The translations under genes and the position numbers were made by a program. From a virus: 44,709 nt of DNA. Of this stretch, positions 3-41,493 are shown one piece after another (position 1 is the stretch's first letter; every line of letters starts with the position of its first letter). The stretch is taken from UHGV virus genome UHGV-0231863. One strand, 5' to 3'. The notes beneath the pieces are model-generated. The model did not search any database. It had not been told where the DNA came from and was given only the letters and a program-made list of their open reading frames with translations.

Positions 3-116
3 CCCGTGCGCGGTGTTGTAGAGGCGGATGAGCTGGTTGCGACCCAACCGGACAACGAAGAAGCGCACAACAACGGCGGTGGCACTAAGCGTCGTCGCCG
101 TAAGTCTGAGGAATAG
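3..116 (+). CDS. partial CDS (3' end only), unknown product
   Basis: Frame open from the window edge to a stop near 114-116; basic C-terminal tail KRRRRKSEE; start lies outside the window. Confidence 0.3.
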   Translation, partial: PVRGVVEADELVATQPDNEEAHNNGGGTKRRRRKSEE

Positions 117-171
117 TAATATCTGGCGTAGTCGGTATAATGAATCCATCCTCCATTGAAAAGGGTGAATC

Positions 172-921
172 ATGAACTACGCCAAAATCTATGAACAGTT
201 AATATCGAACGCAAAAATCAATCCGTTTAGTGGATATACCGAAAAACATCACATAGTCCCGAAATGCATGGGTGGTGGAGATACTTTTGACAATATTGTA
301 TCTTTGAGCGCTAGACAGCATTTTATTGCGCATTGGCTTCTCTATAAGATACACGGGACTAAAGAACTAGCTTTCGCCTGGAGGGTTATGTGTATTAACC
401 CTAAAAACAATCAAAGGTCAAAAGTTACCTCACATTCCTTTAAGTTGGCGAAAGAGGCTTGGGCTATAGAGATGTCCATGTTGAATACTGGTGTTAAATT
501 TTCTGATAAACGTATAGAAAATCTCAGACAAGCACATCTAGGGCAAAAGGCGTGGAATAAAGGAATTGCTACCGGGGAAACTGCAAGTAGAAAAGCCAGA
601 ATAGAGCATTACATGGCAAACCCACAACGATGTGTAACATGCGACCAGCCGATCCCCTACCGTTTTAAATCACGAGCGCGTAAATATTGCTGCAAGAAAT
701 GCCAGTTCGCGGACCCAAATAGAATCGTTGGCAAGGTTAATAGAAAACCTAACTCCGGAAGTTTTAAGAAGGGCCATACGTTAAAGGGCGAGACTGTCAA
801 GAAAATTTCAGATAAACTTACTGGAATGAAACGCCCGCGCGGGGTATGCCCACATTGCGGAACCGAAGGGGCGCTATCTCTTCTAAAGAGGTGGCACTTT
901 GATAACTGTAAGAAGGGGTGA
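172..921 (+). CDS. HNH homing endonuclease with NUMOD-like DNA-binding repeats
   Basis: ATG at 172; HNH core EKHHIVPK...N...ARQHFIAH; C-terminal repeated SDKxxxxLxxxK modules and Cys pairs; visibly AT-rich compared with flanking structural genes. Confidence 0.85.
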   Translation: MNYAKIYEQLISNAKINPFSGYTEKHHIVPKCMGGGDTFDNIVSLSARQHFIAHWLLYKIHGTKELAFAWRVMCINPKNNQRSKVTSHSFKLAKEAWAIEMSMLNTGVKFSDKRIENLRQAHLGQKAWNKGIATGETASRKARIEHYMANPQRCVTCDQPIPYRFKSRARKYCCKKCQFADPNRIVGKVNRKPNSGSFKKGHTLKGETVKKISDKLTGMKRPRGVCPHCGTEGALSLLKRWHFDNCKKG

Positions 922-5550: not shown

Positions 5551-6677
5551 CCAAGCATCTCCGGTGAAATAGTTAAACGTGCGACCTCGCCATATTCGGC
5601 GCTATAAGTAATTACGTTTGCACTGCGGCCCGACATCCACCCACCGCGGGAGGCATATGCATCTTTAGCCGCGAGAGTGCGGTGTTGCTCAACAATCATG
5701 TTACGGCTTTCTACAATCTTTTGGTGGTGCAGGTGACCCACGTGGGCGTAGCTGTAAACACTCTCGCCGAACGCTTTGCGGAACTTGGCGATCATAACCG
5801 GTTCGATAGCGTCGAATCGTGCTTTATGCCCATGATGGAAGAACAGCGTCGTTTTGCCGTGTTGCACCATCTTGTAAACATCCGGCGACGTATCGACGAA
5901 CACACGCGGCTCATTGTCGTACAGCGTACTAAACATCTCAGCTAACCAAATCATTCCGCTTTCGTCGTGGTTACCTTGCACGATAAGCAAGCGAACATTT
6001 TTATGTTTAACGAGAGCCATATCAATGACACGGCGGACCATACGAATCATGTAGCGTACAAGTTTCTGATAGCGGGTGTCAGCGTCAAGAACATGACCAC
6101 TGGCAGGTGTAACGGCGTCCAGACTATCGAAATGCGCAAGGTCGCCCAGCAGATTAATAACTCCTGTTCCGGCATCCGGTGCTTTCTGGAACGCTGCGTC
6201 GAACCAGCAGGAGAACAGGTCTTCCGCAATCTTCATGTCCCAGTCGTCGCCGCTCTCGTCAGCCCAGGCCAGCATACCGAGATGGAAATCAGACACAGTG
6301 TAAAGGTTGAGTAGCTTGTCGTCTCGTTTGGCGCGAACGGCTTTAACAGGTGCAACTGGTGTAATCTCCGACTTCATGCCTTCGATTACGGCTTTCATCA
6401 ATTCAACCTGACGTTCGGCATCGGTGTCGGTCTTAACCCATTGCAACTTGGTGTTGCCAAACTCATCCACCAGTGATGACGTTCCTTTAATCTTGTAGCC
6501 GTCCGGTACAAGGTAACTAACGTCACGCCCGTGGCCTACACCTTTCTTAGCCAGCTTCGCTTTACGGATACGAATAACGCGGTCGGAGATGCCGTATTTA
6601 CGGGCGATGTCGATATTCTTCATACCGGCGTTCAATTCTTCCTGTAACTGTTCGTCGGTTATTTTCTTCCTGGCCAT
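5547..6677 (-). CDS. calcineurin-like metallophosphoesterase with N-terminal HTH
   Basis: N-terminal HTH (IARKYGISDRVIRIRK) then phosphoesterase motifs DFHLG, GDLAHFD, GNHD, HHGH, GHLHH. Confidence 0.65.
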   Translation of the reverse strand: MARKKITDEQLQEELNAGMKNIDIARKYGISDRVIRIRKAKLAKKGVGHGRDVSYLVPDGYKIKGTSSLVDEFGNTKLQWVKTDTDAERQVELMKAVIEGMKSEITPVAPVKAVRAKRDDKLLNLYTVSDFHLGMLAWADESGDDWDMKIAEDLFSCWFDAAFQKAPDAGTGVINLLGDLAHFDSLDAVTPASGHVLDADTRYQKLVRYMIRMVRRVIDMALVKHKNVRLLIVQGNHDESGMIWLAEMFSTLYDNEPRVFVDTSPDVYKMVQHGKTTLFFHHGHKARFDAIEPVMIAKFRKAFGESVYSYAHVGHLHHQKIVESRNMIVEQHRTLAAKDAYASRGGWMSGRSANVITYSAEYGEVARLTISPEMLG

Positions 6678-6714
6678 GCTTATTCCTCGTGTTTAGGATT
6701 TGTCCTATACTAGC

Positions 6715-6921
6715 TCACTTCTCTTTGACATTCGAGTTGCACGCCCAGATTAAGATAAATACCCACGGCAGCAGAACCCAACCAAGAAACAGATTAGCCA
6801 TGAATATCGCTAACTTCGCTTTATGGTTACGGAAGTACGCAACCAGGAAAGGCGCGAAATAAGCGAGCAGTGCAAACAGAATTAAGGAAACTGGTAAACT
6901 GGACATTTTAAACCCCTTCAT
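6715..6921 (-). CDS. superinfection-immunity-like small membrane protein (Imm family)
   Basis: 68 aa, two predicted TM helices, NLFLGWVLLPWVFILIWA motif; own promoter upstream. Confidence 0.5.
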   Translation of the reverse strand: MKGFKMSSLPVSLILFALLAYFAPFLVAYFRNHKAKLAIFMANLFLGWVLLPWVFILIWACNSNVKEK

Positions 6922-6936
6922 TGTTGGTGTAAGTGA

Positions 6937-6965
6937 ATAGTACCCTATTATATTGGGGTGTGCAA
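6937..6965 (-). promoter_or_regulatory. promoter TTGCAC-17-TACTAT with AATAG-N4-CTATT operator (6936-6949)
   Basis: Minus strand CTTGCACACcccaatataatagggTACTATTCAC upstream of Imm-like gene; near-identical to cassettes at 28984 and 30284. Confidence 0.55.
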
Positions 6966-7073
6966 GTAATGTGATAGAATAAGTTTGCGCCTAGTGTCGC
7001 ACACGAAAAGCGGGTGGTTCCCGTCTGGCGCATTTATCGTTAACCTGTAACCTCTTAACCAAAGGATTAAAGA

Positions 7074-7490
7074 ATGAAACTTTCTGATTTTTATTTCGAA
7101 GAGAAAGCACTGGTAGGCAAGAAGATGCCCATTCTGCTGCCAAACGGCGAAGACTCCGGTGAATGGCTTAACGTTGTAAGTCCCGATGCGGATGTCGCCG
7201 TTAAAGCGGGGCGTGCTTTCATTATTGCGTACCGTCGCGGGTTGGCGCGTTTCGAAGAACTGGAAAAAGCCGCCAAAGAATCCGGCGACTATACTGAATA
7301 TAACCTGGCTATTAACGAACTGGCGGAAGACCTCAACCGGCAACTCGCGGCAGAAGTCGCAAACGGCTGGAGCTTTGATGAGCCTTTCTCTAAAGAAGCA
7401 TTTAACAAATTGCTGGACCAGTTCAAGGCATTAGGCACACAGGTAGCAGCGTTCCATAACGCTGAGCGCAAAGCATTACAGGAAAAGTAG
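7074..7490 (+). CDS. tail assembly chaperone (G-like)
   Basis: 138-aa acidic protein immediately upstream of the tape measure gene; downstream ORF is in the -1 frame. Confidence 0.5.
   Translation: MKLSDFYFEEKALVGKKMPILLPNGEDSGEWLNVVSPDADVAVKAGRAFIIAYRRGLARFEELEKAAKESGDYTEYNLAINELAEDLNRQLAAEVANGWSFDEPFSKEAFNKLLDQFKALGTQVAAFHNAERKALQEK
7481..7487 (+). other. candidate -1 programmed ribosomal frameshift site (GGAAAAG)
   Basis: Heptamer ending in AAAAG just before the stop of the upstream chaperone ORF; -1 frame is open from here to 7855. Confidence 0.35.
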
Positions 7491-7522
7491 ACGCGCTGTA
7501 CAGGTTCGCCACCTATGAGTTT

Positions 7523-7855
7523 GTGGATAAGCATAAAATCAGAGAGTTTGATTCTATAGCCGACGGACACGAACAGGCGCTTATCGCGATGGGTGTAATC
7601 GATAAGAAAAAACGTGCAGCGCGACGGGGTGGGCCAGAATGCCCGCCCCTTTTTATATCCACCTTCGAGACGTACTGCGACATTAAGTTTACGCGACACG
7701 TGCGCGAGGACGCTGTAGTATTGTTCGCAAGAGAATCCGTTACGTGGCAAGACCTGAAAGCCTATCTCGATGTTACGCAAAAACAGCTTAGCCTGTTCGA
7801 GATAGACATTATCATGGGCTTAGAAGCAATCTTTGAAGGTAGAAATCATGGCTGA
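7523..7855 (+). CDS. tail assembly chaperone extension (GT-like, -1 frame)
   Basis: ORF in the -1 frame relative to 7074..7490, open from ~7466; ends overlapping the tape measure start. Confidence 0.4.
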   Translation: MDKHKIREFDSIADGHEQALIAMGVIDKKKRAARRGGPECPPLFISTFETYCDIKFTRHVREDAVVLFARESVTWQDLKAYLDVTQKQLSLFEIDIIMGLEAIFEGRNHG

Positions 7856-18661: not shown

Positions 18662-19478
18662 TTACCGCCCCCATGAATGCCTTTATAAATTCAGCGGCTA
18701 CTTGCGGGACGATGGCATTGCCGTAACCGCGCAATCGTCCCACTCTTGCGGGTATCCCATTAGCCAGCGGGAATGCGCCGGGTTCAACCGGCCGGAACTT
18801 TCCATCACGGCATCCGAGCCAGTCAGCATCTGACCAGAAGCCGTGGTGCGGGTTGGTTGACTCGCTTTCAATCCCTGCTCTGTTGAGTAGTCCAGCCTGT
18901 CGAATGTTCTGTCCCTCCCGTCCGTGCGAATCACTGTCTCTCCGCTCCCTCTGAAGTCGTTCGCTGTCGGTGTAGGCCAGTTCGTGCGCGCCAAAGAAGA
19001 GTCGTTCTCTTTTGTGCGGTGCGCCGACGCTACAAGCTGGGAGTACAGCAAACCCGACGGCGTAGTCTTCTCCTTCCAGGTGAGCTTGTAAATCGCACAT
19101 CCACGATTTTGCAATTGCTGCCGCAACCTGCTCCCCAAAGATGACTGGAGGGCGGCACTCGCTGATGAGGTCGAGGAAGACCGGCGCGAGGTGTCTCGGG
19201 TCGAACTGTCCGAGTTGTTTTCCTGCCGTGCTAAACGGTTGGCAAGGCGGGCTTCCCGTCCAGAGAGGCGTATCCTCCGAAACTCCCGCAAGTCTGAGCG
19301 CGAGAGGCCAGCCGCCGATACCAGCGAAAAAATGACACTGGGTGAACCCGTCAAGGTCTTCTGGCTTAACTTCGGTAATGCTTCTTTCATCTACAACTCC
19401 AAAAGGTATGTGACCCTGTTTTATCAACTCACGCAGCCACGCGGCTGCGCCTTTATCCCATTCATTGTAATAGTTCAT
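18654..19478 (-). CDS. DNA (cytosine-5)-methyltransferase
   Basis: Motif I FFAGIGGW, motif [10 protein letters not shown], motif [12 protein letters not shown], motif [11 protein letters not shown]. Confidence 0.85.
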
Positions 19479-19666
19479 TTCGCCACCAGAACTAACTCTT
19501 TACGCCCGAACGCCGTAACGTTACCGGTTACATCTTCGATAACCAGTTTACCGTTTGACTCGACGTACACCGTATCAACGGCAACAGGGTGGCGGGTCTT
19601 AACGTTGAAAATCATATCGCCGGGTACGATCTCGCGTGCTGGTTTGCGGTCATATTCGTGTTTCAT
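19475..19666 (-). CDS. hypothetical protein
   Basis: 63-aa ORF with AAGGA SD; internal promoter just upstream. Confidence 0.4.
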   Translation of the reverse strand: MKHEYDRKPAREIVPGDMIFNVKTRHPVAVDTVYVESNGKLVIEDVTGNVTAFGRKELVLVAK

Positions 19667-19696: not shown

Positions 19697-19981
19697 CTAA
19701 CTATAATAGTTCGCTATTAGGTCGTCAACCTGTTTAAACGAACCAACGACAAAAACATTCGCACCACGTTTACGCATACGCTCGTGCTCACGTAACTGGT
19801 GTGGGTCTGGCTTCGTGTTTTCGTCTTTCTTAACCTCGACGAACAAGACGATGCCGACGGGTAGAATTACCAGCAGGTCTGGGGCGCCGGAACGCCCCTC
19901 GTAGGAGAGTTTGCGAACGAGGCCGCCAAGGGCCTCTAATCGGTCTTTTGCGTATTTCTGTACGCGGCCCTCTTTAGTCAT
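19697..19981 (-). CDS. VRR-NUC domain nuclease
   Basis: GAPDLLVI...VEVK...Q motif pattern of the PD-(D/E)XK VRR-NUC family; start taken at internal Met of the track ORF. Confidence 0.7.
   Translation of the reverse strand: MTKEGRVQKYAKDRLEALGGLVRKLSYEGRSGAPDLLVILPVGIVLFVEVKKDENTKPDPHQLREHERMRKRGANVFVVGSFKQVDDLIANYYS
19700..19728 (-). promoter_or_regulatory. promoter TTGACG-17-TATAGT with operator AATAGttcgCTATT (19705-19718)
   Basis: Read on minus strand; overlaps 3' end of VRR-NUC gene, upstream of 19475..19666. Confidence 0.5.
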
Positions 19982-22573: not shown

Positions 22574-23200
22574 TTAACGGCGACGACGTTCGCGGCGCGG
22601 TGCTTCATCCTCTTCATCGTCTTCAAGGTCATCGACGCTTGCGGCTACTTTAGAACCGCCAAACGCTTTACCTTCACCAACGTATTTAATAGCCAGCAGG
22701 TTAACGCCGAGGACTTTGTATTTCTGGCTGAACCAGATTTCAACGCTTACGTTAGCGACGCAGCCGCTGTAAACCTGTTCACCTTCAATCTGTTCGCCGT
22801 CTACATTGAAGTCCTGTTCTACCTGAGTCTCGCCTTTTTTAGAGGTTACAATCAGTGGCTGTTTCTGTGCCTTCGCCTTGAAGTAGAAGCCTTCCGGGAA
22901 GTCTTCAAACGGATTGTCGCGCTCGGCAATGTCTTTAATCGCACATTTATCCATGTGCTTACCTTCGCCGTAGTTGGACTTCATCCACTTCTCAGCGGCA
23001 GCTGCGCCCAACGCTTCTTCAACCACAGCGTAAACGGTGTCGTAGAGCGCGTCGATTTGTGCGTGGTCAGACGGCAGGATGATAGTCGCGCTGTACTGGC
23101 CTTTAGTGATTGAGCCATCATCGTTTTCACGGTCTTTTTCGCGTTCGAATACGTTAACCCATGCAGTGTTTACTTTACGCAGATTCAGTTTAATACCCAT
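22574..23200 (-). CDS. putative ssDNA-binding protein (DUF2815-like, acidic C-terminal tail)
   Basis: Acidic C-terminal tail DDLEDDEEDE typical of phage SSBs; sits next to a Cas4-like nuclease. Confidence 0.4.
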   Translation of the reverse strand: MGIKLNLRKVNTAWVNVFEREKDRENDDGSITKGQYSATIILPSDHAQIDALYDTVYAVVEEALGAAAAEKWMKSNYGEGKHMDKCAIKDIAERDNPFEDFPEGFYFKAKAQKQPLIVTSKKGETQVEQDFNVDGEQIEGEQVYSGCVANVSVEIWFSQKYKVLGVNLLAIKYVGEGKAFGGSKVAASVDDLEDDEEDEAPRRERRRR

Positions 23201-23253: not shown

Positions 23254-23282
23254 ACTATAATAGCTAGCTATTCAGGTGTCAA
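23254..23282 (-). promoter_or_regulatory. promoter TTGACA-17-TATAGT with perfect 14-bp palindrome AATAGCTAGCTATT (23259-23272)
   Basis: Minus strand, intergenic between nuclease and SSB-like genes. Confidence 0.6.
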
Positions 23283-24849: not shown

Positions 24850-25371
24850 TTATTCTTCTTCGAAATACTTGTTCTTGATTGCTGTCAGGCGCTCCAGATA
24901 CTCAGCCAGGTCTTCGTCTTTAATCGCTGCAATCTTCATCTTCTTACCGGTAAACTCTTCCAGCAGTTCGTCAGAATCGTCGCACGCGGCATCGCTTGGG
25001 CCTTCGTTAATCGCATCGTCGATAGCCTGAATCTGGTCGCGCAGAGACTGGTAATCGACTTCTTCTTTCTCTTCTTCCGGCTCTGGCGTTGGTTCCTCTA
25101 CTTTGTCCTTACGCGGCTTGCGCTTCGGCTTCTCTTCTTCTGCTGGTTTAGTGTCGACGATGTCTTCACCTTCAACCGGGATTTCTTTCGCCTTCTCGAC
25201 TTCTTCAAGTGCTTTAGCCAGTTCTTTTTTAACTGTCTCTACCCCAGTTACCGCGACGTCAACAGTCAATTCACCTACAGATTTGCTAGTCGGTTGTTTC
25301 ACACTGTTTGCAGCAATCAGTTCGTGGGCGACTACGAAACGTTCCAGTAATACCAAGAATTTCTCTAACAT
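24850..25371 (-). CDS. acidic low-complexity protein
   Basis: 173 aa, Glu/Lys/Pro-rich centre and acidic C-terminus; first gene downstream of the 25402-25431 promoter. Confidence 0.45.
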   Translation of the reverse strand: MLEKFLVLLERFVVAHELIAANSVKQPTSKSVGELTVDVAVTGVETVKKELAKALEEVEKAKEIPVEGEDIVDTKPAEEEKPKRKPRKDKVEEPTPEPEEEKEEVDYQSLRDQIQAIDDAINEGPSDAACDDSDELLEEFTGKKMKIAAIKDEDLAEYLERLTAIKNKYFEEE

Positions 25372-25401
25372 TTGTTTCTCTCCTCTCGTTTGGTATGTGT
25401 T

Positions 25402-25431
25402 AACTATAATAGCGAACTATTCACGTTGTCA
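25402..25431 (-). promoter_or_regulatory. promoter TTGACA-18-TATAGT with operator AATAGcgaaCTATT (25407-25420)
   Basis: Minus strand, divergent from XRE regulator gene; second degenerate operator AATATggtaCTATT at 25452-25465. Confidence 0.6.
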
Positions 25432-25496
25432 ATGGGCTTTTCTAAAATAATTAATATGGTACTATTCACATATCAACTGACTAAGGAGTAATTGGC

Positions 25497-25712
25497 ATGC
25501 AACCATCTGAACTAGGTATCCGTGTAGAGCAACGCCGTAAAGAACTCGGTATCTCCCAGCGCCATCTGGCTGTCCTGGCCGGTGTTTCCCAAGGCGCGAT
25601 TAACCAGCTGGCACTTGGGGTAACTCAGGACGTCCGCCCAGCGACGCTGTTTAAACTGGCGGAAGTGCTGCAAGTAGACGCCAAGTGGCTGGCGTTGGGT
25701 GAAGGGGCTTAA
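25497..25712 (+). CDS. XRE-family HTH transcriptional regulator (Cro/CI-like)
   Basis: HTH LGISQRHLAVLAGVSQGAINQLALG; divergently placed in the leftward operon next to operator palindromes. Confidence 0.8.
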   Translation: MQPSELGIRVEQRRKELGISQRHLAVLAGVSQGAINQLALGVTQDVRPATLFKLAEVLQVDAKWLALGEGA

Positions 25713-25728
25713 CGCCCCTTTATTTTTA
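25702..25728. terminator. terminator hairpin after XRE gene / end of primase gene
   Basis: AAGGGG-cttaacg-CCCCTT then TATTTTT. Confidence 0.5.
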
Positions 25729-27991: not shown

Positions 27992-28116
27992 TTCTTTTTC
28001 TCCGCACGTTCTAAGGCTTCCTGCATACGGCGCATTGCGCGGTTCATCTTTACCGGTGCGAAGAAATCAGCGCCGTGTTTCTGGCGGCGTAGCTGTGGAA
28101 CTATTAACTTCGTCAT
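27988..28116 (-). CDS. small basic protein (approximate coordinates)
   Basis: ~42-codon ORF with AGGA SD whose stop overlaps the primase start. Confidence 0.3.
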   Translation of the reverse strand: MTKLIVPQLRRQKHGADFFAPVKMNRAMRRMQEALERAEKKK

Positions 28117-28166
28117 TGTATAATCCTTGTGCTTACTTTGATGATTTATGCTTCGGCCCCGACGTT

Positions 28167-28400
28167 CTAGCGTTGGGGTTTCTTTTGTCTACGCACCGCA
28201 TTAACCCACTCTCCTTCGCTACGGTAAAAACTGCAATCAAGGATATCCTCTATAGAAAATTTAACTATTTTAGTGGGTCCACAAAAGTTATAAGGGAAAA
28301 GTTCTACATAACACCCATCGTCGGTTATATTTGACGCAATCTTGAAATAATATTTAATGCTGCCGTCTTCGCGGAAGCTACAACCCATACGCCCAATCAT
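28167..28400 (-). CDS. hypothetical protein
   Basis: 77-aa ORF between AlpA-like gene and primase. Confidence 0.4.
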   Translation of the reverse strand: MIGRMGCSFREDGSIKYYFKIASNITDDGCYVELFPYNFCGPTKIVKFSIEDILDCSFYRSEGEWVNAVRRQKKPQR

Positions 28401-28579
28401 TTCACGTTCTCCTTAATCCACTCTTCAACTTTATTACGGTCGAATGTTCCCGGTAAACGGCGACCCATAACCTTAATACAGCAATCCGGGAATTTACCAC
28501 TGCGCAACCAGTTATTAATTGTCTGACGCGTCACCCCGATACGCTCGGCTACTTCATTCTGTGTCATGTAATGTTGCAT
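28397..28579 (-). CDS. AlpA/Xis-like winged-helix DNA-binding protein
   Basis: MTQNEVAERIGVTRQTINNWLRSGKFP; AGGAG SD before internal ATG at 28579; first gene of the leftward operon. Confidence 0.6.
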   Translation of the reverse strand: MQHYMTQNEVAERIGVTRQTINNWLRSGKFPDCCIKVMGRRLPGTFDRNKVEEWIKENVK

Positions 28580-28610
28580 TTTTAAATCTCCTGTTTGTTT
28601 GGTGAAGCCA

Positions 28611-28639
28611 AGTATAGGATAGCGGGAATGTAAAAGCAA
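28611..28639 (-). promoter_or_regulatory. promoter TTGCTT-17-TATACT for leftward operon (AlpA-like gene first)
   Basis: Read on minus strand; ~30 nt upstream of the AGGAG SD. Confidence 0.45.
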
Positions 28640-28686
28640 CCAAAACACCACACAAAGTTACTAAGATACAAAAGATGCTACCGGTA

Positions 28687-28715
28687 TTGACTTTTACTTA
28701 AAAATATGGTAAGCT
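28687..28715 (+). promoter_or_regulatory. promoter TTGACT-17-TAAGCT (copy 1 of duplicated cassette) with palindrome AAGCTCAGcCTGAGCTT
   Basis: Plus strand; palindrome 28711-28727 overlaps -10; followed by identical 38-mer shared with 41272-41309. Confidence 0.45.
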
Positions 28716-28718
28716 CAG

Positions 28719-28756
28719 CCTGAGCTTGTGAAGTATGAACAAGCGACCGCGGCGCG
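28719..28756 (+). repeat. 38-nt block identical to 41272-41309 (copy 1)
   Basis: CCTGAGCTTGTGAAGTATGAACAAGCGACCGCGGCGCG; contains hairpin GCTTGT-gaagtatga-ACAAGC and ATG of micro-ORF MNKRPRR. Confidence 0.85.
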
Positions 28757-28901
28757 CGGCGGGCGAAACGAGCACGTGTAGCGTGTGGAGTGAGGCTCGC
28801 TGGCGCGTTTGGGAGGCCCAAAGTCTATTGTAATTCCCGCCTAAATATCTAAGTTACTGATTTGCCGTTGGTTATATCCGCAAGCTCACTCACTCACTCT
28901 T

Positions 28902-28938
28902 GGTGCCTTCGGCACCACGTTCGTTTCGTTTCGCTTGC
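28902..28938 (+). terminator. UUCG-tetraloop hairpin plus U-rich tract
   Basis: GGTGCC-ttcg-GGCACC followed by ACGTTCGTTTCGTTTCGCTT; preceded by (CTCA)x3. Confidence 0.45.
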
Positions 28939-28983
28939 TACCCCATTAAACGAAAGAATCACAACGGCAACGTAACTATTCTC

Positions 28984-29012
28984 TTGCACACACCAACATA
29001 ATAGGATACTAT
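28984..29012 (+). promoter_or_regulatory. promoter TTGCAC-17-TACTAT with operator AATAGgataCTATT (29000-29013)
   Basis: CTTGCACACaccaacataataggaTACTATTCAC then conserved AAACGAGA leader and GGAG SD. Confidence 0.55.
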
Positions 29013-29046
29013 TCACTTATCGAAACGAGACAGAGGAGTGAGGGCT

Positions 29047-29244
29047 ATGTTTAAACGTGGTCAGTTGGTTAAATACTCCGACGATAAACACGGCATAATT
29101 GAATTAAAATCTGCTTTATTTCCAGGAAAGTACGTAGTTACCGTGCAAAATGTGAGAGGAGTAAATTCACAAATATACGTAGCGGAGGAGAACTTAAAAC
29201 TCATCGGCAACAATTTTAAATTTAAAGGGGGGAGGGTGAAGTGA
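29047..29244 (+). CDS. hypothetical early protein
   Basis: ATG with GGAG SD downstream of conserved promoter cassette; stop overlaps next start. Confidence 0.45.
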   Translation: MFKRGQLVKYSDDKHGIIELKSALFPGKYVVTVQNVRGVNSQIYVAEENLKLIGNNFKFKGGRVK

Positions 29245-29444
29245 TGGAAGAATTATTTGAAGAACTGAAACATCATGATTTCGAGGAAATATATTTCGTA
29301 GCTGAACGCTACGAGGTGCATCTGGCGGACGGTATAACGGTTATTACATCTACCAGCGAGCGAATGTTAAATAGCTTACGAGCAATACGAACGGCATCGA
29401 ATCATGATGCTTGTGCCGACGACGCTGAGGGAGGTTGCCGTTAA
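29244..29444 (+). CDS. hypothetical early protein
   Basis: Acidic 66-aa ORF, TGATG / TAATG coupling to neighbours. Confidence 0.45.
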   Translation: MEELFEELKHHDFEEIYFVAERYEVHLADGITVITSTSERMLNSLRAIRTASNHDACADDAEGGCR

Positions 29445-29623
29445 TGCGAATCCGTATAACTGACCGCAGGCTTATCCGTATAACTGACCGCAGGCTTATA
29501 GATTTCGGTATCTCGGTAGGTGATGTTTTTCCGGCGTTCAGAATCAACCATTATGGTTTTATGATTGAGTACAAAGGGTCGTTATTGTTCGTGTATCGGG
29601 ATGAATGTGAGGTTCTGGTATGA
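29444..29623 (+). CDS. hypothetical early protein containing tandem IRITDRRL repeat
   Basis: 59-aa ORF; includes the perfect 24-bp tandem duplication. Confidence 0.4.
   Translation: MRIRITDRRLIRITDRRLIDFGISVGDVFPAFRINHYGFMIEYKGSLLFVYRDECEVLV
29450..29497 (+). repeat. perfect 24-bp tandem duplication (2 copies)
   Basis: ATCCGTATAACTGACCGCAGGCTT repeated head-to-tail; encodes IRITDRRL twice in frame. Confidence 0.9.
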
Positions 29624-29775
29624 GAGAAGCATTTGAACGGTGGGCTGTGGTCGAGGGTCTGCCGGTTAACAAGGGTTCAAAGAAAGAGTACCTGAACGTT
29701 AAGACGCGTCTCGCGTGGCGGGCGTGGAAAGCTGGTGTGCAATCCTTGATTGAAAGAGGTGTGAGGTATGGGTGA
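29620..29775 (+). CDS. hypothetical early protein
   Basis: 51-codon ORF read by eye, ATGA-type overlaps at both ends. Confidence 0.35.
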   Translation: MREAFERWAVVEGLPVNKGSKKEYLNVKTRLAWRAWKAGVQSLIERGVRYG

Positions 29776-29968
29776 GTGGATTAAGTGTAGTGAGATGCTG
29801 CCGGGTAATGGGTATACGGATAAAGAGTTCCTGGTGTATGAAACGTTAAATAACGCAGTTCAGCACGATTATTACATAGTTCCTGATGACGGGAGAAAGC
29901 CTTTCTGGAATCACTACGATAATTACGTGACGCACTGGATGCCGTTACCCGAGCCGCCAGAAGTGTGA
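29768..29968 (+). CDS. DUF551-like small phage protein
   Basis: C-terminal THWMPLPEPP motif. Confidence 0.5.
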   Translation: MGEWIKCSEMLPGNGYTDKEFLVYETLNNAVQHDYYIVPDDGRKPFWNHYDNYVTHWMPLPEPPEV

Positions 29969-30035
29969 TGTTCAATAGTTTGGGATTTTACTGAGTGACT
30001 TACGCTGCTACACAGCAGCGTACAACTTTAACTTA

Positions 30036-30059
30036 GTGTCGTCAAAAGGCGACACTTTC
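30036..30059 (+). terminator. terminator-like hairpin
   Basis: GTGTCG-tcaaaagg-CGACAC + TTT; preceded by 9-bp-arm inverted repeat TACGCTGCT-acac-AGCAGCGTA (~30001-30022). Confidence 0.4.
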
Positions 30060-30102
30060 ATCAAACGCAACAATCGAAGCGACTATTGCAGGAGATGCAA
30101 CA

Positions 30103-30276
30103 ATGATTACTAAAGAACAGGCTGAACGACTAATCACGTTAATCGACACGATGGTTGATGCGAAAACCGATTTAGCAACGGCGACAGAGGAATCCGCTAC
30201 CTGGTCGCTTGAAGAAAGAGAGGCAGAAGCGGAAAGGGAGTTACTGGCGTTCATCGACTCTATAACACACCAATAA
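30103..30276 (+). CDS. hypothetical early protein (approximate coordinates)
   Basis: 57-codon ORF with AGGAG SD; opposite-strand track ORF 30042..30254 is low-complexity and judged spurious. Confidence 0.4.
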   Translation: MITKEQAERLITLIDTMVDAKTDLATATEESATWSLEEREAEAERELLAFIDSITHQ

Positions 30277-30283
30277 AATTTAC

Positions 30284-30312
30284 TTGCACACTAAGATAGA
30301 ATAGGCTACTAT
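30284..30312 (+). promoter_or_regulatory. promoter TTGCAC-17-TACTAT with operator AATAGgctaCTATT (30300-30313)
   Basis: CTTGCACACtaagatagaataggcTACTATTCAT then AAACGAGAGGAGAG leader. Confidence 0.55.
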
Positions 30313-30342
30313 TCATTTACACAAACGAGAGGAGAGACAGAG

Positions 30343-30480
30343 ATGGGCTGGTACGGTAGCTGGACTTTAGGCGAACCGGTAGACGCTTACGAAATAATTA
30401 GTAGCACTTCGGTGTGTGACGGCGACACTAAATCGCTGCTAGTCGGGGTGGATGAGAAAAGGGGTGAAGCTGATGAGTAA
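30343..30480 (+). CDS. hypothetical early protein
   Basis: 45-codon ORF directly downstream of promoter cassette at 30284-30312; stop overlaps next start. Confidence 0.35.
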   Translation: MGWYGSWTLGEPVDAYEIISSTSVCDGDTKSLLVGVDEKRGEADE

Positions 30481-31018
30481 CAAAAACGAAATATTCGAGT
30501 ACCTGATCGACCAGCTACGGCAGCAGGTAAATAACAGCCGGAGCGAAGACCTGGCTCATGAGGTGCAGTCACTTAAGAATCAGTTACGTGATGCTTCGGC
30601 GCAGATTAAGGAGTTGCGGGAAGACAACATTAAGAAATCTGAGCACATATCGCACCTGACATGGCAAGTTAAGGAGTTGCATCTGGCATTGGCCGAGGCT
30701 ACTGGTGACGTGGAGGCATACAAACTTATCCGCAAAGGTGCGTACGGTTCGGAGCAATCTGGTTGCCGAAAAGAAGATACGCAGGAATGTGACCACAATT
30801 GGATTATCGCTCCAGGATTGTTTATCGCCGAAGGCCACAAGGACAACGTGCCCGGTAGCCGGTTTTGCTGCGAATGCGGCAAGCGTGAGTGGGACGGACT
30901 TGAGTATGGGGCAACAGCCTGTACACAGGAGTGCAAACACAGTTTCTATTATGTAATAACAGATGGCTCAGCGCCGTTCGGTACGAAAGTATGTAAAACG
31001 TGCGGGGAATACTTCTGA
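30473..31018 (+). CDS. coiled-coil protein with C-terminal Cys-rich (zinc-binding-like) domain
   Basis: N-terminal heptad region; C-terminal CDHNW, CCECGK, CTQEC, CKTCGEYF. Confidence 0.5.
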   Translation: MSNKNEIFEYLIDQLRQQVNNSRSEDLAHEVQSLKNQLRDASAQIKELREDNIKKSEHISHLTWQVKELHLALAEATGDVEAYKLIRKGAYGSEQSGCRKEDTQECDHNWIIAPGLFIAEGHKDNVPGSRFCCECGKREWDGLEYGATACTQECKHSFYYVITDGSAPFGTKVCKTCGEYF

Positions 31019-31221
31019 TGACCAGCATCTTATTTATCTGGGTACTGTCGGCGGGCAAGATGCAACTAGCGGCATCGGAAACGTTTTATTCGACGGAGGC
31101 GTGCCAGTCCGCGGCACGCGCCGCAGAGAACGCACACTTCCTGTTTCAGGGCGACAAGCCCAACGATTCAGAGGTACGCGCTATCTGCTCACCTAAGCGA
31201 CTTGGCAATCAGGAGAAATAA
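31018..31221 (+). CDS. small protein with signal-peptide-like N-terminus
   Basis: Hydrophobic N-terminus MTSILFIWVLSAGKMQLAAS; TGATG coupling. Confidence 0.35.
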   Translation: MTSILFIWVLSAGKMQLAASETFYSTEACQSAARAAENAHFLFQGDKPNDSEVRAICSPKRLGNQEK

Positions 31222-31514
31222 TGTCGTTAGCAACTGACATCCTGAAACGAAGCGGCCTTGCGCCGCTGTCGCCGAGAGCTAAAACACGGGTATACAAGCG
31301 CCACCGTAACGCTCTGTACCCTGAGATTCAGGCCAGACGTAAAGCTATCCGCGCCTGTGGATTCCAGAACGGGAAGGCCGTGAATCTCGGTGAGTTCAAA
31401 ACACAGGAACGTGCAGCTATAGCTAATCGGTTATTTAATTACTGGAAATCGCTTGGATACGATGATATTCCAACGAAACCCCAGAGACGACAATACATCT
31501 GGAGACATAAATAA
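31221..31514 (+). CDS. hypothetical basic protein
   Basis: 97-aa Arg/Lys-rich ORF. Confidence 0.45.
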   Translation: MSLATDILKRSGLAPLSPRAKTRVYKRHRNALYPEIQARRKAIRACGFQNGKAVNLGEFKTQERAAIANRLFNYWKSLGYDDIPTKPQRRQYIWRHK

Positions 31515-32626: not shown

Positions 32627-32755
32627 TGGACGAATACGAAGGCGTTTAGTAAACTTATCCCTACGCTGTTTGTGCTTGCATACTAAGCCCCGGTAAACCC
32701 GAAGCAGCAGCCCAAGCGGTGGAGACTGCGTAGGGTTCAAGGGCTTATGACCGAA

Positions 32756-32784
32756 ACCCGGACCGCGAATCCGGGTTTTATTTT
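32756..32784 (+). terminator. intrinsic terminator after lysis cassette (first of two)
   Basis: ACCCGGA-ccgcgaa-TCCGGGT + TTTATTTT. Confidence 0.65.
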
Positions 32785-32859
32785 ACCAATTGACACCTAA
32801 GACTAATCCGACGATACTTAAATCACCTCCTGTTCCATCCCTCTGCTCTCCAGTTCTAT

Positions 32860-32890
32860 CCCGGCACTGACCCAGCCGGGATTTTTTTTT
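32860..32890 (+). terminator. intrinsic terminator (second of two)
   Basis: CCCGGC-actgaccca-GCCGGG + A T9. Confidence 0.7.
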
Positions 32891-36456: not shown

Positions 36457-37926
36457 ATGTTAACTATGAACGGTCAGAATCAGGGTGTTAAGACAAAACA
36501 CCGGGAATGGCTGCATCACTTCGATAAATGGCAGAAGGTGCGCCACGCACTGGAGGGTGACCTTATCCGCTATCTGCGAAACGTCGGGAAGAACGAGCCG
36601 GACCCAACTTATGCAGCCCAGCGCCAGGAAGAATACGAGAACGGCGCTATCTGCTACAATTTCACCAAGCGTACCCTGTCGGGTATGGTTGGCTCGGTAA
36701 TGCGAAAAGACCCGGAGCAGATTATTCCACGTGAACTGGAATACCTGTTACGCAATGCCGATGGCTCGGGTGTCGGCCTGTGGCAGCACGCGCAGGATAC
36801 GCTGATGGAGATTGACTCGGTGGGTCGTGGCGGTTTACTGGTGGATGCGCCGGAGACAGCGGCAGCGACGGCAGCCGAACAGAACGCCGGATTATTAAAC
36901 CCGGTCATCGCATTCTATACCGCAGAGAACATCATCAACTGGCGACTCACTCGCGTAGGCTCTGTTAACCGCGTTACGATGGTAGTGCTGCGTGAGGTAT
37001 GGGAATATTCAGAACCTCGAGCCGAGTTTGAAACCAAGTTTGGGGAACAATACCGCGTTCTCGACTTGATTGACGGGCGCTACCGTCAGCGCATATACCG
37101 ATTCGATGCGGAAGGCGGCGCGCAAGACGAAGTAATAGAAATCTTCCCGGAACTGGGCGAACAGTTGCGCGGCAAAATCCCGTTCACGTTCATCGGGGCC
37201 AGCAACAACGACGCGACGGTTGATGACGCGCCTTTGCTGCCGTTAGCTGAGCTTAATATCGGGCATTTTCGCAACAGCGCAGACAATGAGGAATCTAGCT
37301 TCGTTGTAGGCCAGCCCACTCTGTTCATCGCCCCCGGTGAGAACATGAGCATGGTACAATGGAAAGAAGCCAACCCTCGCGGAGTGCGTATGGGGTCACG
37401 TTCTGGCCATAACATCGGTTACGGCGGCAATGCGTTTCTGGTCCAGGCCGGTGAGAACAACCTAGCCAAGCAGAACATGTTGGATAAAGAGAACCAGGCC
37501 ATCCAGATTGGGGCGCAGCTTATCACCCCGACGCAGCAAATCACCGCGGAATCGGCCCGCCTGCAACGCGGAGCGGATACGTCTGTTATGGCGACAATCG
37601 CACGTAACGTAAGCATGGCGTATACCGATGCGTTGCGCTGGGTCGCGGGTATGCTTGGGATTAGCGACAGCACTGAAATTGAGTTCAAACTGAACATGGA
37701 GTTCTTCCTGCAACCGATGACAGCTCAGGACCGTTCTCAGTGGATGGCGGATATTAACGCTGGCTTGTTACCAGCTACTGCTTACTACGCCGCGCTGCGT
37801 AAGGCTGGCGTAACCGACTGGACCGATGAGGACATTCAGAACGCTATTGAGGACGCACCGCTGCCGTTGGGTGTAAATACTCAGGTAGCGGGGGATATTC
37901 CGCAGTCGGCGCAACAACAGGAGTAG
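36457..37926 (+). CDS. portal protein
   Basis: 489-aa protein directly after terminase, acidic C-terminus. Confidence 0.8.
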   Translation: MLTMNGQNQGVKTKHREWLHHFDKWQKVRHALEGDLIRYLRNVGKNEPDPTYAAQRQEEYENGAICYNFTKRTLSGMVGSVMRKDPEQIIPRELEYLLRNADGSGVGLWQHAQDTLMEIDSVGRGGLLVDAPETAAATAAEQNAGLLNPVIAFYTAENIINWRLTRVGSVNRVTMVVLREVWEYSEPRAEFETKFGEQYRVLDLIDGRYRQRIYRFDAEGGAQDEVIEIFPELGEQLRGKIPFTFIGASNNDATVDDAPLLPLAELNIGHFRNSADNEESSFVVGQPTLFIAPGENMSMVQWKEANPRGVRMGSRSGHNIGYGGNAFLVQAGENNLAKQNMLDKENQAIQIGAQLITPTQQITAESARLQRGADTSVMATIARNVSMAYTDALRWVAGMLGISDSTEIEFKLNMEFFLQPMTAQDRSQWMADINAGLLPATAYYAALRKAGVTDWTDEDIQNAIEDAPLPLGVNTQVAGDIPQSAQQQE

Positions 37927-37931
37927 ATAGA

Positions 37932-37955
37932 AAGGCCCCGCTAGGGGCCTTAGCT
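37932..37955. terminator. bidirectional terminator-like hairpin
   Basis: AAGGCCCC-gcta-GGGGCCTT between convergent portal and KilA-N genes; same stem as 4487 and 17013. Confidence 0.55.
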
Positions 37956-38609
37956 TTAACGTATATTAGCCGCACATTTACGCACAACCCGAGGTATCGC
38001 CTCTTTCAGTTCACCCCATGTATTAACGGCCTCCATGTCAAGAAGTGTCACCAGAGCTTTCTGGATGTCACTTCGCAACTGATTGGTCTTCGCATCCTGA
38101 GAGTCCCATGTATCGAAACCCGTTACGTCGCGGATATCTACGGATTCCTTTACCGCTTTAGCCACCTGTATGAAGTGTCCACTGTGGCCAATTCTTCCCT
38201 CCGTGCGCTCAATCATTCGACTAACGGCAGCGTTAAGCTCGACAAAGCTCACCGCGCCAATGTTTCGTAGTTCTACCTGCCGTTGTGTGATAAAGCGGTC
38301 GATAACGAGGAAATGGAAATAGGCGCTGTATTGCTCAGCAATATATACTGCCAGATGGAGACATGCAAAGGTGCGACCGTTTCGGCCTTTCGTCGCCCTT
38401 ATGGCATTCTCGATTCCGAGTTGTTTTTCGCATTCCTCCTTGAAAATCTTGAAGCCATCCGTTGACATGACCTGGCGAAGCTCTCTTGTCCCCATGCCGT
38501 TGTCTAAACGCCAACGGTTCATCTGGTCAACCAGCTCGTTTACGTTAATAAAGTTTTCACGGTCAAAAGTGATTTCTCCATAAGGGAACTCTAATGTTTG
38601 CAGTTTCAT
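37956..38609 (-). CDS. KilA-N domain protein (antirepressor-like regulator)
   Basis: GRNGRTFACLHLAVYIAEQYSAYFHFLV resembles the KilA-N/APSES core; lone minus-strand gene inside the head module with own promoter and AGGAG SD. Confidence 0.5.
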   Translation of the reverse strand: MKLQTLEFPYGEITFDRENFINVNELVDQMNRWRLDNGMGTRELRQVMSTDGFKIFKEECEKQLGIENAIRATKGRNGRTFACLHLAVYIAEQYSAYFHFLVIDRFITQRQVELRNIGAVSFVELNAAVSRMIERTEGRIGHSGHFIQVAKAVKESVDIRDVTGFDTWDSQDAKTNQLRSDIQKALVTLLDMEAVNTWGELKEAIPRVVRKCAANIR

Positions 38610-38637: not shown

Positions 38638-38665
38638 TAAATTCTACATTTGAATGTAGAATTTA
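38638..38665. promoter_or_regulatory. 28-bp palindrome (13-bp perfect arms)
   Basis: TAAATTCTACATT tg AATGTAGAATTTA in the divergent region between KilA-N and head morphogenesis genes. Confidence 0.6.
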
Positions 38666-38670
38666 ATCAA
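38641..38670 (-). promoter_or_regulatory. promoter TTGATT-18-TAGAAT for KilA-N gene, overlapped by 28-bp palindrome
   Basis: Minus strand; palindrome TAAATTCTACATT-tg-AATGTAGAATTTA at 38638-38665. Confidence 0.45.
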
Positions 38671-41225: not shown

Positions 41226-41268
41226 AACTATTCGAATAGTTGACTTTTCACCAAAAATGTGCTAAGCT
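41226..41268 (+). promoter_or_regulatory. promoter TTGACT-17-TAAGCT (copy 2 of duplicated cassette) preceded by 16-bp palindrome AACTATTCGAATAGTT
   Basis: Palindrome 41226-41241 abuts -35 at 41240-41245; -10 at 41263-41268. Confidence 0.45.
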
Positions 41269-41271
41269 CCA

Positions 41272-41309
41272 CCTGAGCTTGTGAAGTATGAACAAGCGAC
41301 CGCGGCGCG
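41272..41309 (+). repeat. 38-nt block identical to 28719-28756 (copy 2)
   Basis: Same 38-mer downstream of homologous promoter; flanks diverge immediately afterwards. Confidence 0.85.
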
Positions 41310-41493
41310 GGCAGGTAACGGAGCGGGACGTAAGTCCTGAGTGTAGTTACGCTGACGCGTTCGGAAGGGCCATACCCTATTGCTTGTGTAAAAAGTAACT
41401 GGTTTACTGAGATTACGCCGTTTCTATGTTTAAATGATAAGGACTAGCGCCCCGCTTTAAGGCGGGGCTTTACTTATCGAGAAAGGGGGAAAC

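What the first reader, a model, noticed from the sequence alone, without database searches (positions are those of the whole stretch)
28984..29013. Three near-identical ~45-bp promoter cassettes (CTTGCACAC...AATAGGnTACTATTCA) on both strands
Cassettes at 28981-29025 (+), 30281-30325 (+) and 6925-6968 (-) share the -35, spacer geometry, operator and -10 with only a few substitutions. The two plus-strand copies are followed by a conserved AAACGAGA-GGAG leader, which also occurs upstream of the leftward gene at 25371. This looks like a portable promoter module duplicated across the genome, including in front of the Imm-like gene inside the structural region.
Basis: seen in the sequence. Interest (0 to 1): 0.5.

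Follow-up and report, generated by a model that had tools for sequence, protein, structure and literature searches.

The report
Repressor-controlled promoter cassettes of a Kagunavirus
The three repeats are real host-type promoters of a K1-specific E. coli phage, each overlapped by a 14-bp palindrome that marks seven promoters and is probably the binding site of the phage's own Cro-like repressor; this is an ordinary kind of phage regulation, and the motif has already been tabulated in related genomes.

Summary
The pattern CTTGCACAC-N4-A-N-A-N-AATAGG-N-TACTATTCA matches exactly three times (28983-29015 +, 30283-30315 +, 6934-6966 -), against 0 expected. The window is a Kagunavirus (K1G-like virulent siphovirus).

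Each cassette reads as a sigma-70-type promoter (TTGCAC-N17-TACTAT) plus a short leader. It is not limited to the cassettes:
- It is the most over-represented gapped palindrome in the genome (6 perfect copies vs 0.03 expected).
- It also lies in the spacer of three near-consensus leftward promoters for replication genes.
- An imperfect copy covers the -10 of a 71-aa 434-Cro-like HTH gene.

The best reading is a seven-site regulon repressed by that protein. Binding is inferred, not shown.

Across about 40 related genomes each cassette is an 80-100-bp conserved island with unrelated flanks and many alternative first genes, so "portable module" is partly right. However, mosaic junctions occur at most small-gene boundaries, not only at cassettes.

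Two published Kagunavirus genome papers already list the motif as PHIRE "phage promoters"; one wrongly ascribes it to a phage RNA polymerase. Interest is low to moderate.

The parts
28983..29046 (+). Cassette 1. -35 TTGCAC 28984-28989; palindrome AATAGGATACTATT 29000-13; -10 TACTAT 29007-12; leader with AAACGAGA 29023-30 and GGAG 29035-38; ATG at 29047 of the first small rightward early gene (MFKRGQLVK...).
30283..30342 (+). Cassette 2. -35 TTGCAC 30284-89; palindrome AATAGGCTACTATT 30300-13; -10 TACTAT 30307-12; leader AAACGAGAGGAGAG from 30323; ATG at 30343 of the second rightward cluster of small genes.
6907..6966 (-). Cassette 3. -35 TTGCAC 6965-6960; palindrome 6936-6949; -10 TACTAT 6942-6937. 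It drives the leftward operon Imm (6906..6715, Pfam Imm_superinfect), metallophosphoesterase, kinase genes, embedded among the tail genes.
19700..19728 (-). Class-B promoter TTGACG-N17-TATAGT with palindrome AATAGCGAACTATT (19705-19718) in the spacer. Lies upstream of 19666..19475, the methyltransferase and the SNF2 helicase.
23254..23282 (-). Class-B promoter TTGACA-N17-TATAGT with palindrome AATAGCTAGCTATT (23259-23272) in the spacer. Lies upstream of the Gp2.5-like SSB gene (23200..22574) and the DNA polymerase gene.
25384..25432 (-). Class-B promoter TTGACA-N18-TATAGT (25432-25403) with palindrome 25408-25421, and leader AAACGAGAGGAG (25391-25380). Lies upstream of 25371..24850 and the DUF2800/PD-(D/E)XK nuclease gene.
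25453..25468 (+). Imperfect palindrome AATATGGTACTATT overlapping an extended -10 (TGgTACTAT) in front of the HTH gene. It lies 45 bp from the 25408 site, in a divergent control region. The single mismatch is conserved in relatives.
25497..25712 (+). Gene for a 71-aa HTH_3/XRE protein, whose closest solved relative is 434 Cro. It is the candidate repressor that binds the palindromes. A terminator-like hairpin at 25691-25716 makes it monocistronic.

Best explanation
The three cassettes are host sigma-70-dependent promoters of a virulent Kagunavirus, each fused to a short 5' leader and ribosome-binding region.

What they drive:
- Cassettes 1 and 2 drive two rightward clusters of small early genes.
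- Cassette 3 drives the leftward Imm / metallophosphoesterase / kinase operon, which is embedded among the tail genes.

What they share: their conserved core is a 14-bp inverted repeat, AATAG-N4-CTATT, overlapping the -10 hexamer. The same palindrome fills the -35/-10 spacer of three near-consensus leftward promoters for the replication and recombination genes. A weakened copy covers the -10 of the gene for a 71-aa 434-Cro-like HTH protein.

Proposed mechanism (inferred): a dimer of this protein binds the palindromes and occludes RNA polymerase. This would turn down early and replication transcription as the protein accumulates, and at higher levels its own promoter through the imperfect site.

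Secondary effect: because promoter, operator and leader are kept nearly constant while the genes around them are exchanged, the cassettes also serve as short homology patches at which early and superinfection-exclusion genes are swapped between related phages.

Status of each step:
- Shown: sequence architecture, enrichment, conservation, family of the HTH protein.
- Inferred: promoter activity, which protein binds, repression.
For: Identity of the genome: Kagunavirus, no integrase or RNA polymerase genes annotated in relatives.

The repeats:
- Exact triple repeat, 0 expected by chance.
- Palindrome with up to 1 mismatch: 11 sites vs 0.72 expected.
- In an unbiased scan of all 5-N(0-8)-5 palindromes it ranks first in the window, in K1G and in Jerseyvirus Ent2 (6 observed vs 0.03 expected). 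The other enriched palindromes are GC-rich terminator stems.

The other promoters:
- The three class-B promoters are the top three hits of the consensus promoter scan, at 10-11 of 12.
- When such promoters are selected only by their hexamers in all fetched loci, 48/48 carry (T/G)AATAG-N4-CTAT|T. The half-sites are invariant apart from one AATCG copy, while the centre and the nucleotides after the -35 vary.

Evidence for a repressor site rather than a polymerase-positioned element:
- The palindrome sits in three different registers relative to the -10 (-19..-6 in cassettes, -25..-12 in class B, -22..-9 at the Jerseyvirus Imm promoter), worked out.
- Sites are syntenic in K1G, Ent2 and SE2, and partly in a Serratia phage.

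The candidate regulator:
- Pfam HTH_3 at 9.7e-12.
- Best solved relatives are 434 Cro (1.8e-6), 434 repressor and P22 C2. From established knowledge, these bind 14-18-bp dyad operators with conserved outer bases and a variable centre.
- Two sites lie in the regulator's own divergent control region.
- The protein is conserved wherever the motif is: over 90% identity in Kagunaviruses, about 50% in Jerseyviruses.

Cassettes as conserved islands:
- Islands with diverse downstream genes, including hybrid P1/P2 leaders joined at AAACGAGA.
- Three alternative genes behind the cassette at the Imm locus.
Against: - No binding or transcript-start data exist. The only RNA-seq study of a Kagunavirus is coarse, has no 5'-end mapping, and puts the HTH gene in its 'middle' class.
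- The cassette hexamers TTGCAC/TACTAT match the sigma-70 consensus at only 7/12 and fail the simple consensus scan. Their strength without a helper is uncertain.
- The recognition-helix residues differ between Kagunavirus (QGAINQ) and Jerseyvirus (QSLITH) although the palindrome is the same. This is neutral to mildly negative for the assignment.
- A second small HTH protein (HTH_17, 28397..28651) and other small proteins are alternative binders.
- Conservation inside the cassette is partly forced, because 19 of 33 positions were fixed by the search pattern.
Confidence: 0.6

Rival explanations
1. The sites are operators, but they are bound by a different phage protein. Candidates are the 83-aa HTH_17/excisionase-like protein encoded at 28397..28651, or one of the many small unannotated early proteins, rather than the 434-Cro-like protein.
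For: The HTH_17 protein is conserved, lies next to cassette 1, and was the only annotated 'early' gene in the K1B4 RNA-seq study. The recognition helices of the XRE protein differ between genera that share the palindrome.
Against: - HTH_17/excisionase-type proteins are not typical dimeric binders of 14-bp dyads (established knowledge).
- The XRE gene carries two sites in its own control region and is a full-length match to 434 Cro.
- No palindrome copy lies directly before the HTH_17 gene.
Confidence: 0.15
2. There is no dedicated regulator. The similarity of the three cassettes reflects only recent duplication or gene conversion of a good promoter plus leader, and the palindrome is incidental to an AT-rich -10 region.
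For: Cassettes 1 and 3 share even their spacer sequence, and in some relatives they are 33/33 identical. The Jerseyvirus Imm promoter is built differently, which argues for copying within Kagunaviruses.
Against: - The same palindrome occurs in three promoters of different architecture and in a different register.
- It is the most enriched gapped palindrome in the genome.
- Its half-sites stay fixed while the centre varies.
- It is conserved across genera and in the HTH gene's own promoter.
Confidence: 0.1
3. The motif is a phage-specific promoter. It would be read either by a phage-encoded RNA polymerase (as stated for fBC-Eco01) or by host polymerase redirected by a phage factor that replaces -35 recognition (T4 MotA/AsiA-like).
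For: - PHIRE picks the motif as 'phage promoters' in Golestan and fBC-Eco01.
- The cassette -35 (TTGCAC) is a poor consensus match.
Against: - No RNA polymerase gene was found in the window's large ORFs, in the K1G annotation, or in the fBC-Eco01 gene table.
- The motif is a dyad, occurs in both orientations and in three registers relative to the -10, and sits between normal -35 and -10 hexamers at 17-18 bp.
- Together these do not fit a directional polymerase promoter or a fixed-position activator box.
Confidence: 0.05

Closest known systems
Phage 434 Cro / cI repressor with the 14-bp OR/OL operators (also P22 C2)
   Same: - A single-domain HTH_3 protein of 71 aa, with a significant full-length match to 434 Cro.
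- 14-bp dyad sites with conserved outer bases and a variable centre that overlap promoter core elements.
- Two sites in a divergent control region next to the regulator gene.
   Different: - The phage is virulent: no CI partner, no integrase, no lysogeny switch.
- Sites are dispersed at seven promoters over 24 kb instead of clustered in OR and OL.
- The half-site sequence is AATAG, not ACAA.
- Binding is untested.
PeSL (promoter-early stem-loop) regulatory cassettes of T4-like phages (PMC2839356, PMC4122927)
   Same: - A repeated sigma-70-like early promoter ending in a Shine-Dalgarno sequence and start codon.
- Located in front of variable small genes of unknown function and of accessory genes inside conserved modules.
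- Conserved islands at which unrelated genes are exchanged.
   Different: - No terminator-grade stem-loop: the palindrome folds at only -2.3 kcal/mol with a 5-bp A/U stem.
- 3 copies per genome instead of about 50.
- Siphovirus, not T4-like.
- Junctions are equally common at other gene boundaries.
- Mini-circles were not examined.
PHIRE-predicted 'conserved/phage promoters' of Kagunaviruses Golestan and fBC-Eco01
   Same: It is the same motif at the same seven kinds of position. Examples are TAATAGGATACTATTCACTT, GAATAGGCTACTATTCATTT and TAATATGGTACTATTCACAT in Golestan, and the consensus tgAATAGTa-ccTATTat-T in fBC-Eco01.
   Different: Those papers only list 20-mers. They do not note the dyad symmetry, the flanking -35/-10 hexamers, the two promoter architectures or the link to the HTH gene. 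One attributes the motif to a phage RNA polymerase that the genome does not encode.

Membership tests
Sigma-70-type bacterial promoter | -35 and -10 hexamers resembling TTGACA/TATAAT, 17+/-1 bp apart | tested here: met
   - Cassettes: TTGCAC-N17-TACTAT. This is only 7/12, but it keeps TTG and the A2/T6 of the -10.
- Class B: TTGAC(A/G)-N17/18-TATAGT, 10-11/12.

Sigma-70-type bacterial promoter | Placed upstream of, and oriented with, a gene or operon start | tested here: met
   All seven sites precede the first gene of a co-oriented gene run. In nearly all of the 97 related cassette copies, a Shine-Dalgarno-preceded start codon follows at 22-39 nt.
Sigma-70-type bacterial promoter | Transcription initiates there with host holoenzyme | not testable with these tools
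   No 5'-end mapping is available; the published RNA-seq is coarse.
434 Cro/cI-type HTH repressor-operator system | HTH_3/XRE DNA-binding domain related to 434 Cro | tested here: met
   Pfam HTH_3 at 9.7e-12. 434 Cro at 1.8e-6 over residues 6-68 of 71.
434 Cro/cI-type HTH repressor-operator system | Dyad-symmetric operators of about 14 bp with conserved outer bases and a variable centre, overlapping promoter core elements | tested here: met
   AATAG-N4-CTATT at seven promoters, with invariant half-sites and a variable centre.
434 Cro/cI-type HTH repressor-operator system | Operators in the regulator's own control region (autoregulation) | tested here: met
   Sites at 25408-25421 and 25453-25466 lie between the HTH gene and the divergent operon.
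434 Cro/cI-type HTH repressor-operator system | Paired CI repressor and lysogeny module (bistable switch) | tested here: not met
   No CI-type repressor with a cleavage domain and no integrase in K1G or fTaEco03 annotations. Published relatives are described as lacking lysogeny genes.
434 Cro/cI-type HTH repressor-operator system | Protein shown to bind the operators and repress | not testable with these tools
   Needs EMSA, footprinting or reporter assays.
434 Cro/cI-type HTH repressor-operator system | Operator sequence co-varies with the recognition helix in diverged relatives | tested here: inconclusive
   - Jerseyvirus HTH (about 50% identity, helix QSLITH) keeps the same palindrome.
- The SE1-type phage (39% identity) lacks canonical sites.
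- The Serratia phage (42%) has AGTAG/CGATT variants.
- There are too few sites to decide.
PeSL cassettes (T4-like phages) | Strong sigma-70-like early promoter repeated in variable regions, ending at the SD and start codon of the downstream gene | tested here: met
PeSL cassettes (T4-like phages) | Stable stem-loop acting as terminator or attenuator within or next to the promoter | tested here: not met
   The palindrome hairpin folds at -2.3 kcal/mol. Whole-cassette folds have z = 0.09, -2.6 and -0.3. The only terminator-like hairpin nearby is 66 bp upstream of cassette 1 and belongs to another element.
PeSL cassettes (T4-like phages) | Indels and replacements between close relatives bounded by the cassettes | tested here: inconclusive
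   Breakpoints cluster at cassette edges, but equally at other gene junctions. There are clear cases at the Imm locus and behind cassette 2.
Promoter for a phage-encoded RNA polymerase | Genome encodes an RNA polymerase | tested here: not met
   None among the window's large ORFs, in the K1G annotation, or in the fBC-Eco01 gene table.

The most novel reading that the evidence does not exclude
A strictly virulent siphovirus family (Guernseyvirinae) runs both its early and its replication transcription through one 434-Cro-like repressor acting at about seven dispersed operators.

In addition, the invariant promoter-operator-leader cassettes would work as PeSL-like homology linkers. Crossovers at the shared AAACGAGA leader would let early and superinfection-exclusion genes be swapped while staying under the same control.
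Probability: 0.3. Interest if true: 0.45.

Novelty: new member of a known kind. Interest (0 to 1): 0.3.

Why it matters
Kagunaviruses and Jerseyviruses are widely proposed for phage therapy and food biocontrol, yet their transcription programme is essentially undescribed.

- A defined seven-site regulon with a named candidate repressor gives a directly testable model of how these virulent phages time early and replication genes.
- It corrects a published misattribution of the motif to a phage RNA polymerase.
- It identifies compact, conserved promoter-operator-leader units that could be used for engineering payload expression.
- The cassette-bounded replacement of Imm by other membrane or secreted proteins also points to where superinfection-exclusion functions are exchanged.

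None of this is conceptually new for phage biology.

Tried and rejected
- **Rfam, whole window:** no family reached gathering score. The cassettes and the neighbouring non-coding element match no known RNA family.
- **PeSL-type stem-loop:** rejected, because the hairpin is too weak.
- **Covariation between HTH recognition helix and operator** in the SE1-type Salmonella phage and Serratia phage Smarc3: too few clear sites, inconclusive.
- **Published temporal RNA-seq for Kagunavirus K1B4:** sampling runs from 5 to 120 min with no TSS mapping, so the gene classes cannot test promoter use. It only notes that Imm, the methylases and DNA polymerase fall in one class.
- **Weak TACTATTCC hit at 110-118 (-):** lies inside coding sequence with no -35 or palindrome, so treated as chance.
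- **AATAG-like hits with one mismatch** at 13132, 39975, 32908 and 41235: the first two are intragenic with no promoter context. The last two overlap the -35 of other promoters and were not counted as sites.
- **TATTAT as an alternative -10 in class B:** rejected, because it would give a 14-15 bp spacer.
- **ArgR-box resemblance** (TGAAT...ATTCA), recalled from memory: rejected because the spacing differs.
- **Not run:** structure prediction and large protein-database searches, because the sequence-level match to 434 Cro was already significant.

Full report
**What the window is.** Megablast of 28000-31500 and 6400-7600 finds hundreds of Guernseyvirinae phages. The best matches (94-99.9%) are E. 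coli Kagunaviruses such as fTaEco03, fKuEco01 and K1G. Gene order follows K1G. The tailspike is an endosialidase, so this is a K1-capsule-specific, virulent K1G-like siphovirus. No integrase or RNA polymerase is annotated in relatives, and none of the window's large ORFs is an RNA polymerase.

**Check of the observation.**
- A degenerate 33-nt pattern derived from them matches only these three places even with 3 mismatches allowed, and never in 100 shuffles.
- Core identity is 30/33 (cassettes 1 vs 3), 26/33 (1 vs 2) and 27/33 (2 vs 3). Identity is at chance 10 bp upstream and beyond +45.
- AAACGAGA followed by GGAG lies downstream of cassettes 1 and 2 and upstream of the leftward gene ending at 25371. 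Cassette 3 has a different leader.

**Anatomy of a cassette.** Each cassette reads TTGCAC, 17 bp, TACTAT. About 20-30 nt of leader then follows, with a Shine-Dalgarno sequence and a start codon (29047, 30343, 6906).
- The hexamers match the consensus only 7/12, so the simple scanner misses them. They keep the most important bases (TTG; A2 and T6 of the -10) at the optimal spacing.
Its right arm lies inside and just past the -10.

**The palindrome is a genome-wide signal.**
- With up to 1 mismatch it occurs 11 times against 0.72 expected.
- In an unbiased count of all 5-mer/gap/5-mer palindromes it ranks first in the window, in K1G and in Salmonella Jerseyvirus Ent2 (6 or 4 observed vs 0.03 expected). 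The other enriched palindromes are GC-rich terminator stems.
- Besides the three cassettes, perfect copies lie at 19705, 23259 and 25408. Each sits in the spacer of a leftward promoter TTGAC(A/G)-N17/18-TATAGT.
- Those three promoters are the top three hits of the consensus scan over 19-33.5 kb. They head the replication and recombination operons: Gp2.5-like SSB and DNA polymerase; methyltransferase and SNF2 helicase; phrog_3127 protein and DUF2800 nuclease.
- A seventh, one-mismatch copy (25453-25466) overlaps an extended -10 (TGgTACTAT) in front of a 71-aa gene. The same mismatch is present in K1G and Golestan.

**Operator rather than promoter element.**
- I selected class-B promoters in all fetched loci by hexamers alone. 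All 48 (42 distinct sequences) contain (T/G)AATAG-N4-CTAT|T. The half-sites are invariant apart from one AATCG copy, while the central four bases and the 3-4 bases after the -35 vary. One-base indels are tolerated only between the -35 and the palindrome.
- The palindrome spans about -19..-6 in the cassettes, -25..-12 in class B, and -22..-9 at the Jerseyvirus Imm promoter.
- A dyad found in three registers and in either orientation fits a repressor that occludes polymerase. It does not fit an element read by polymerase or by a face-specific activator.
- As an RNA or DNA hairpin it is negligible, at -2.3 kcal/mol.

**The candidate regulator.** The gene at 25497..25712 encodes an HTH_3/XRE protein.
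- Its best solved relatives are 434 Cro (E 1.8e-6, nearly full length), 434 repressor and P22 C2. From established knowledge, these bind 14-18-bp dyad operators with conserved outer and variable central bases.
- The gene is monocistronic, with a terminator-like hairpin at its end (also annotated in phage Sciku).
- It sits in a divergent control region holding two of the seven sites.
- Homologues are over 90% identical in Kagunaviruses and about 50% identical in Jerseyviruses, which keep the palindrome at syntenic promoters.
- I therefore propose a Cro-like repressor regulon. This step is inferred.
- Points against: the recognition-helix residues differ between the two genera although the site is the same. 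Another small HTH protein (HTH_17, 28397..28651) is also available.

**Portability of the cassettes.** A scan of IMG/VR for CTTGCAC-N10-AATAG-N4-CTATTCA returned 65 loci, most of them from contigs of 41-45 kb. With the annotated genomes this gave 97 copies.
- Behind cassette 1 there are two patterns. In one, the leader and the first 8-9 codons (MFKKGQLV) are constant and the rest of the protein differs. In the other, homology ends right after AAACGAGACA.
- Behind cassette 2 the leader is constant up to the ATG, and at least 15 unrelated first genes follow.
- Some copies carry hybrid leaders, with the P1 5' part and the P2 3' part joined at AAACGAGA.
- Mean pairwise identity is 0.8-0.98 from about -20/-40 to +60/+80 and falls to 0.27-0.35 outside. 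As a caveat, 19 of 33 core positions were fixed by the search.
- At the Imm locus the same cassette precedes Imm type 1, Imm type 2 or a 108-aa signal-peptide protein. All three sit between the tail-assembly-chaperone and metallophosphoesterase genes.
- In some genomes the Imm-locus and early cassettes are identical over 33 bp. The Jerseyvirus Imm promoter has another -35 and spacer, which indicates copying or conversion within Kagunaviruses.
- However, BLAST block boundaries pile up at most small-gene junctions of the early region as much as at cassette edges. The cassettes are conserved patches in a generally hyperplastic region, not privileged crossover sites.

**Prior knowledge.**
- The Golestan paper lists seven PHIRE "conserved promoter sequences", and the fBC-Eco01 paper lists seven "phage RNAP promoters" with consensus tgAATAGTa-ccTATTat-T. 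These are the same sites.
- Neither paper mentions operators or the repressor. The fBC-Eco01 gene table contains no RNA polymerase.
- A temporal RNA-seq study of Kagunavirus K1B4 exists but lacks TSS resolution.
- The closest concept for conserved promoter cassettes that bound swapped genes is the PeSL of T4-like phages. The defining stem-loop is absent here.

**Verdict.** The repeat is real and functional-looking. Its core is an operator shared by seven promoters, most likely bound by the phage's 434-Cro-like protein. The 'portable module' idea is partly right. This is a new, uncharacterised example of a familiar kind of phage regulation, and the motif itself is already recorded in the literature.

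Noticed in passing
window 28687-28935 (+) and 41240-41475 (+): Two paralogous non-coding elements of about 230 nt. They are 75% identical overall, and the first ~90 nt are nearly identical.
- Each starts with a TTGACT-N17-TAAGCT promoter (28687-28715; 41240-41268).
- Each ends in a terminator-like hairpin (28901-28917; about 41448-41468).
- There is no Rfam match.
- The first lies immediately left of cassette 1.
- The promoter of the second is listed as a host promoter in the fBC-Eco01 paper.

These are possibly a pair of phage ncRNAs.
   Followed up: partly
window 28918-28933 (+): The tail of the first non-coding element (CGTTCGTTTCGTTTCG) contains TCGTTTCG, the reverse complement of the CGAAACGA leader motif of cassette 1. 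Antisense pairing between that RNA and the cassette leaders is conceivable but untested, and it could be chance.
   Followed up: no
window 32790-32890 (+): A TTGACA-N17-GATACT promoter-like site is followed about 40 nt later by the hairpin cccggcactgacccagccggg plus a run of nine T. It is preceded by another terminator-like hairpin near 32748-32775. This could be a ~60-nt small RNA gene between the lysis genes and the next gene cluster, or just tandem terminators.
   Followed up: no
window 38639-38670 (-): The leftward amidase gene (38609..37956, phrog_6095), embedded in the head module, has its own promoter TTGATT-N18-TAGAAT. A unique 26-bp perfect palindrome, AAATTCTACAT-TCAA-ATGTAGAATTT, covers that promoter. 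It is unrelated to the AATAG palindrome, so it may be a second operator type. In relatives (Golestan, fBC-Eco01) AATAG-type sites are reported in this part of the genome instead.
   Followed up: partly
window 41226-41241: A perfect 16-bp palindrome, AACTATTCGAATAGTT, overlaps the -35 of the second non-coding element's promoter. It carries the same half-sites as the operator but in the opposite (outward) order with a 2-bp gap. It is a single occurrence.
   Followed up: partly
L003 (Salmonella phage Ent2) about 37890-37970: This is the orthologue of cassette 1, with the same upstream flank and the same ACCCCAACAT spacer. It carries substitutions in the -35 (TTGTAT), the palindrome (AACAG) and the -10 (TGCTAT), and homology ends after CGAAATG. 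It appears to be a decaying copy, while a second intact site lies 500 bp downstream.
   Followed up: no
L007 (Serratia phage Smarc3) upstream of genes at 3826 (+) and 27522 (-): Class-A-like cassettes (TTGCA[AT]-N17-TAC[TG]AT followed by CATCGAAACGA...) are present in a Serratia phage. The left half-site there reads AGTAG. The ATCGAAACGAGA leader is thus conserved across three host genera, which suggests a function for the 5' leader beyond the Shine-Dalgarno sequence.
   Followed up: partly
window 172-921 (+): By synteny with K1G gp13, an ORF annotated as a homing endonuclease (mobE-like) sits among the head/neck genes. Jerseyvirus relatives carry inteins in their helicase and DNA polymerase genes (Ent2 annotation). 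Selfish elements therefore appear common in this phage group.
   Followed up: no
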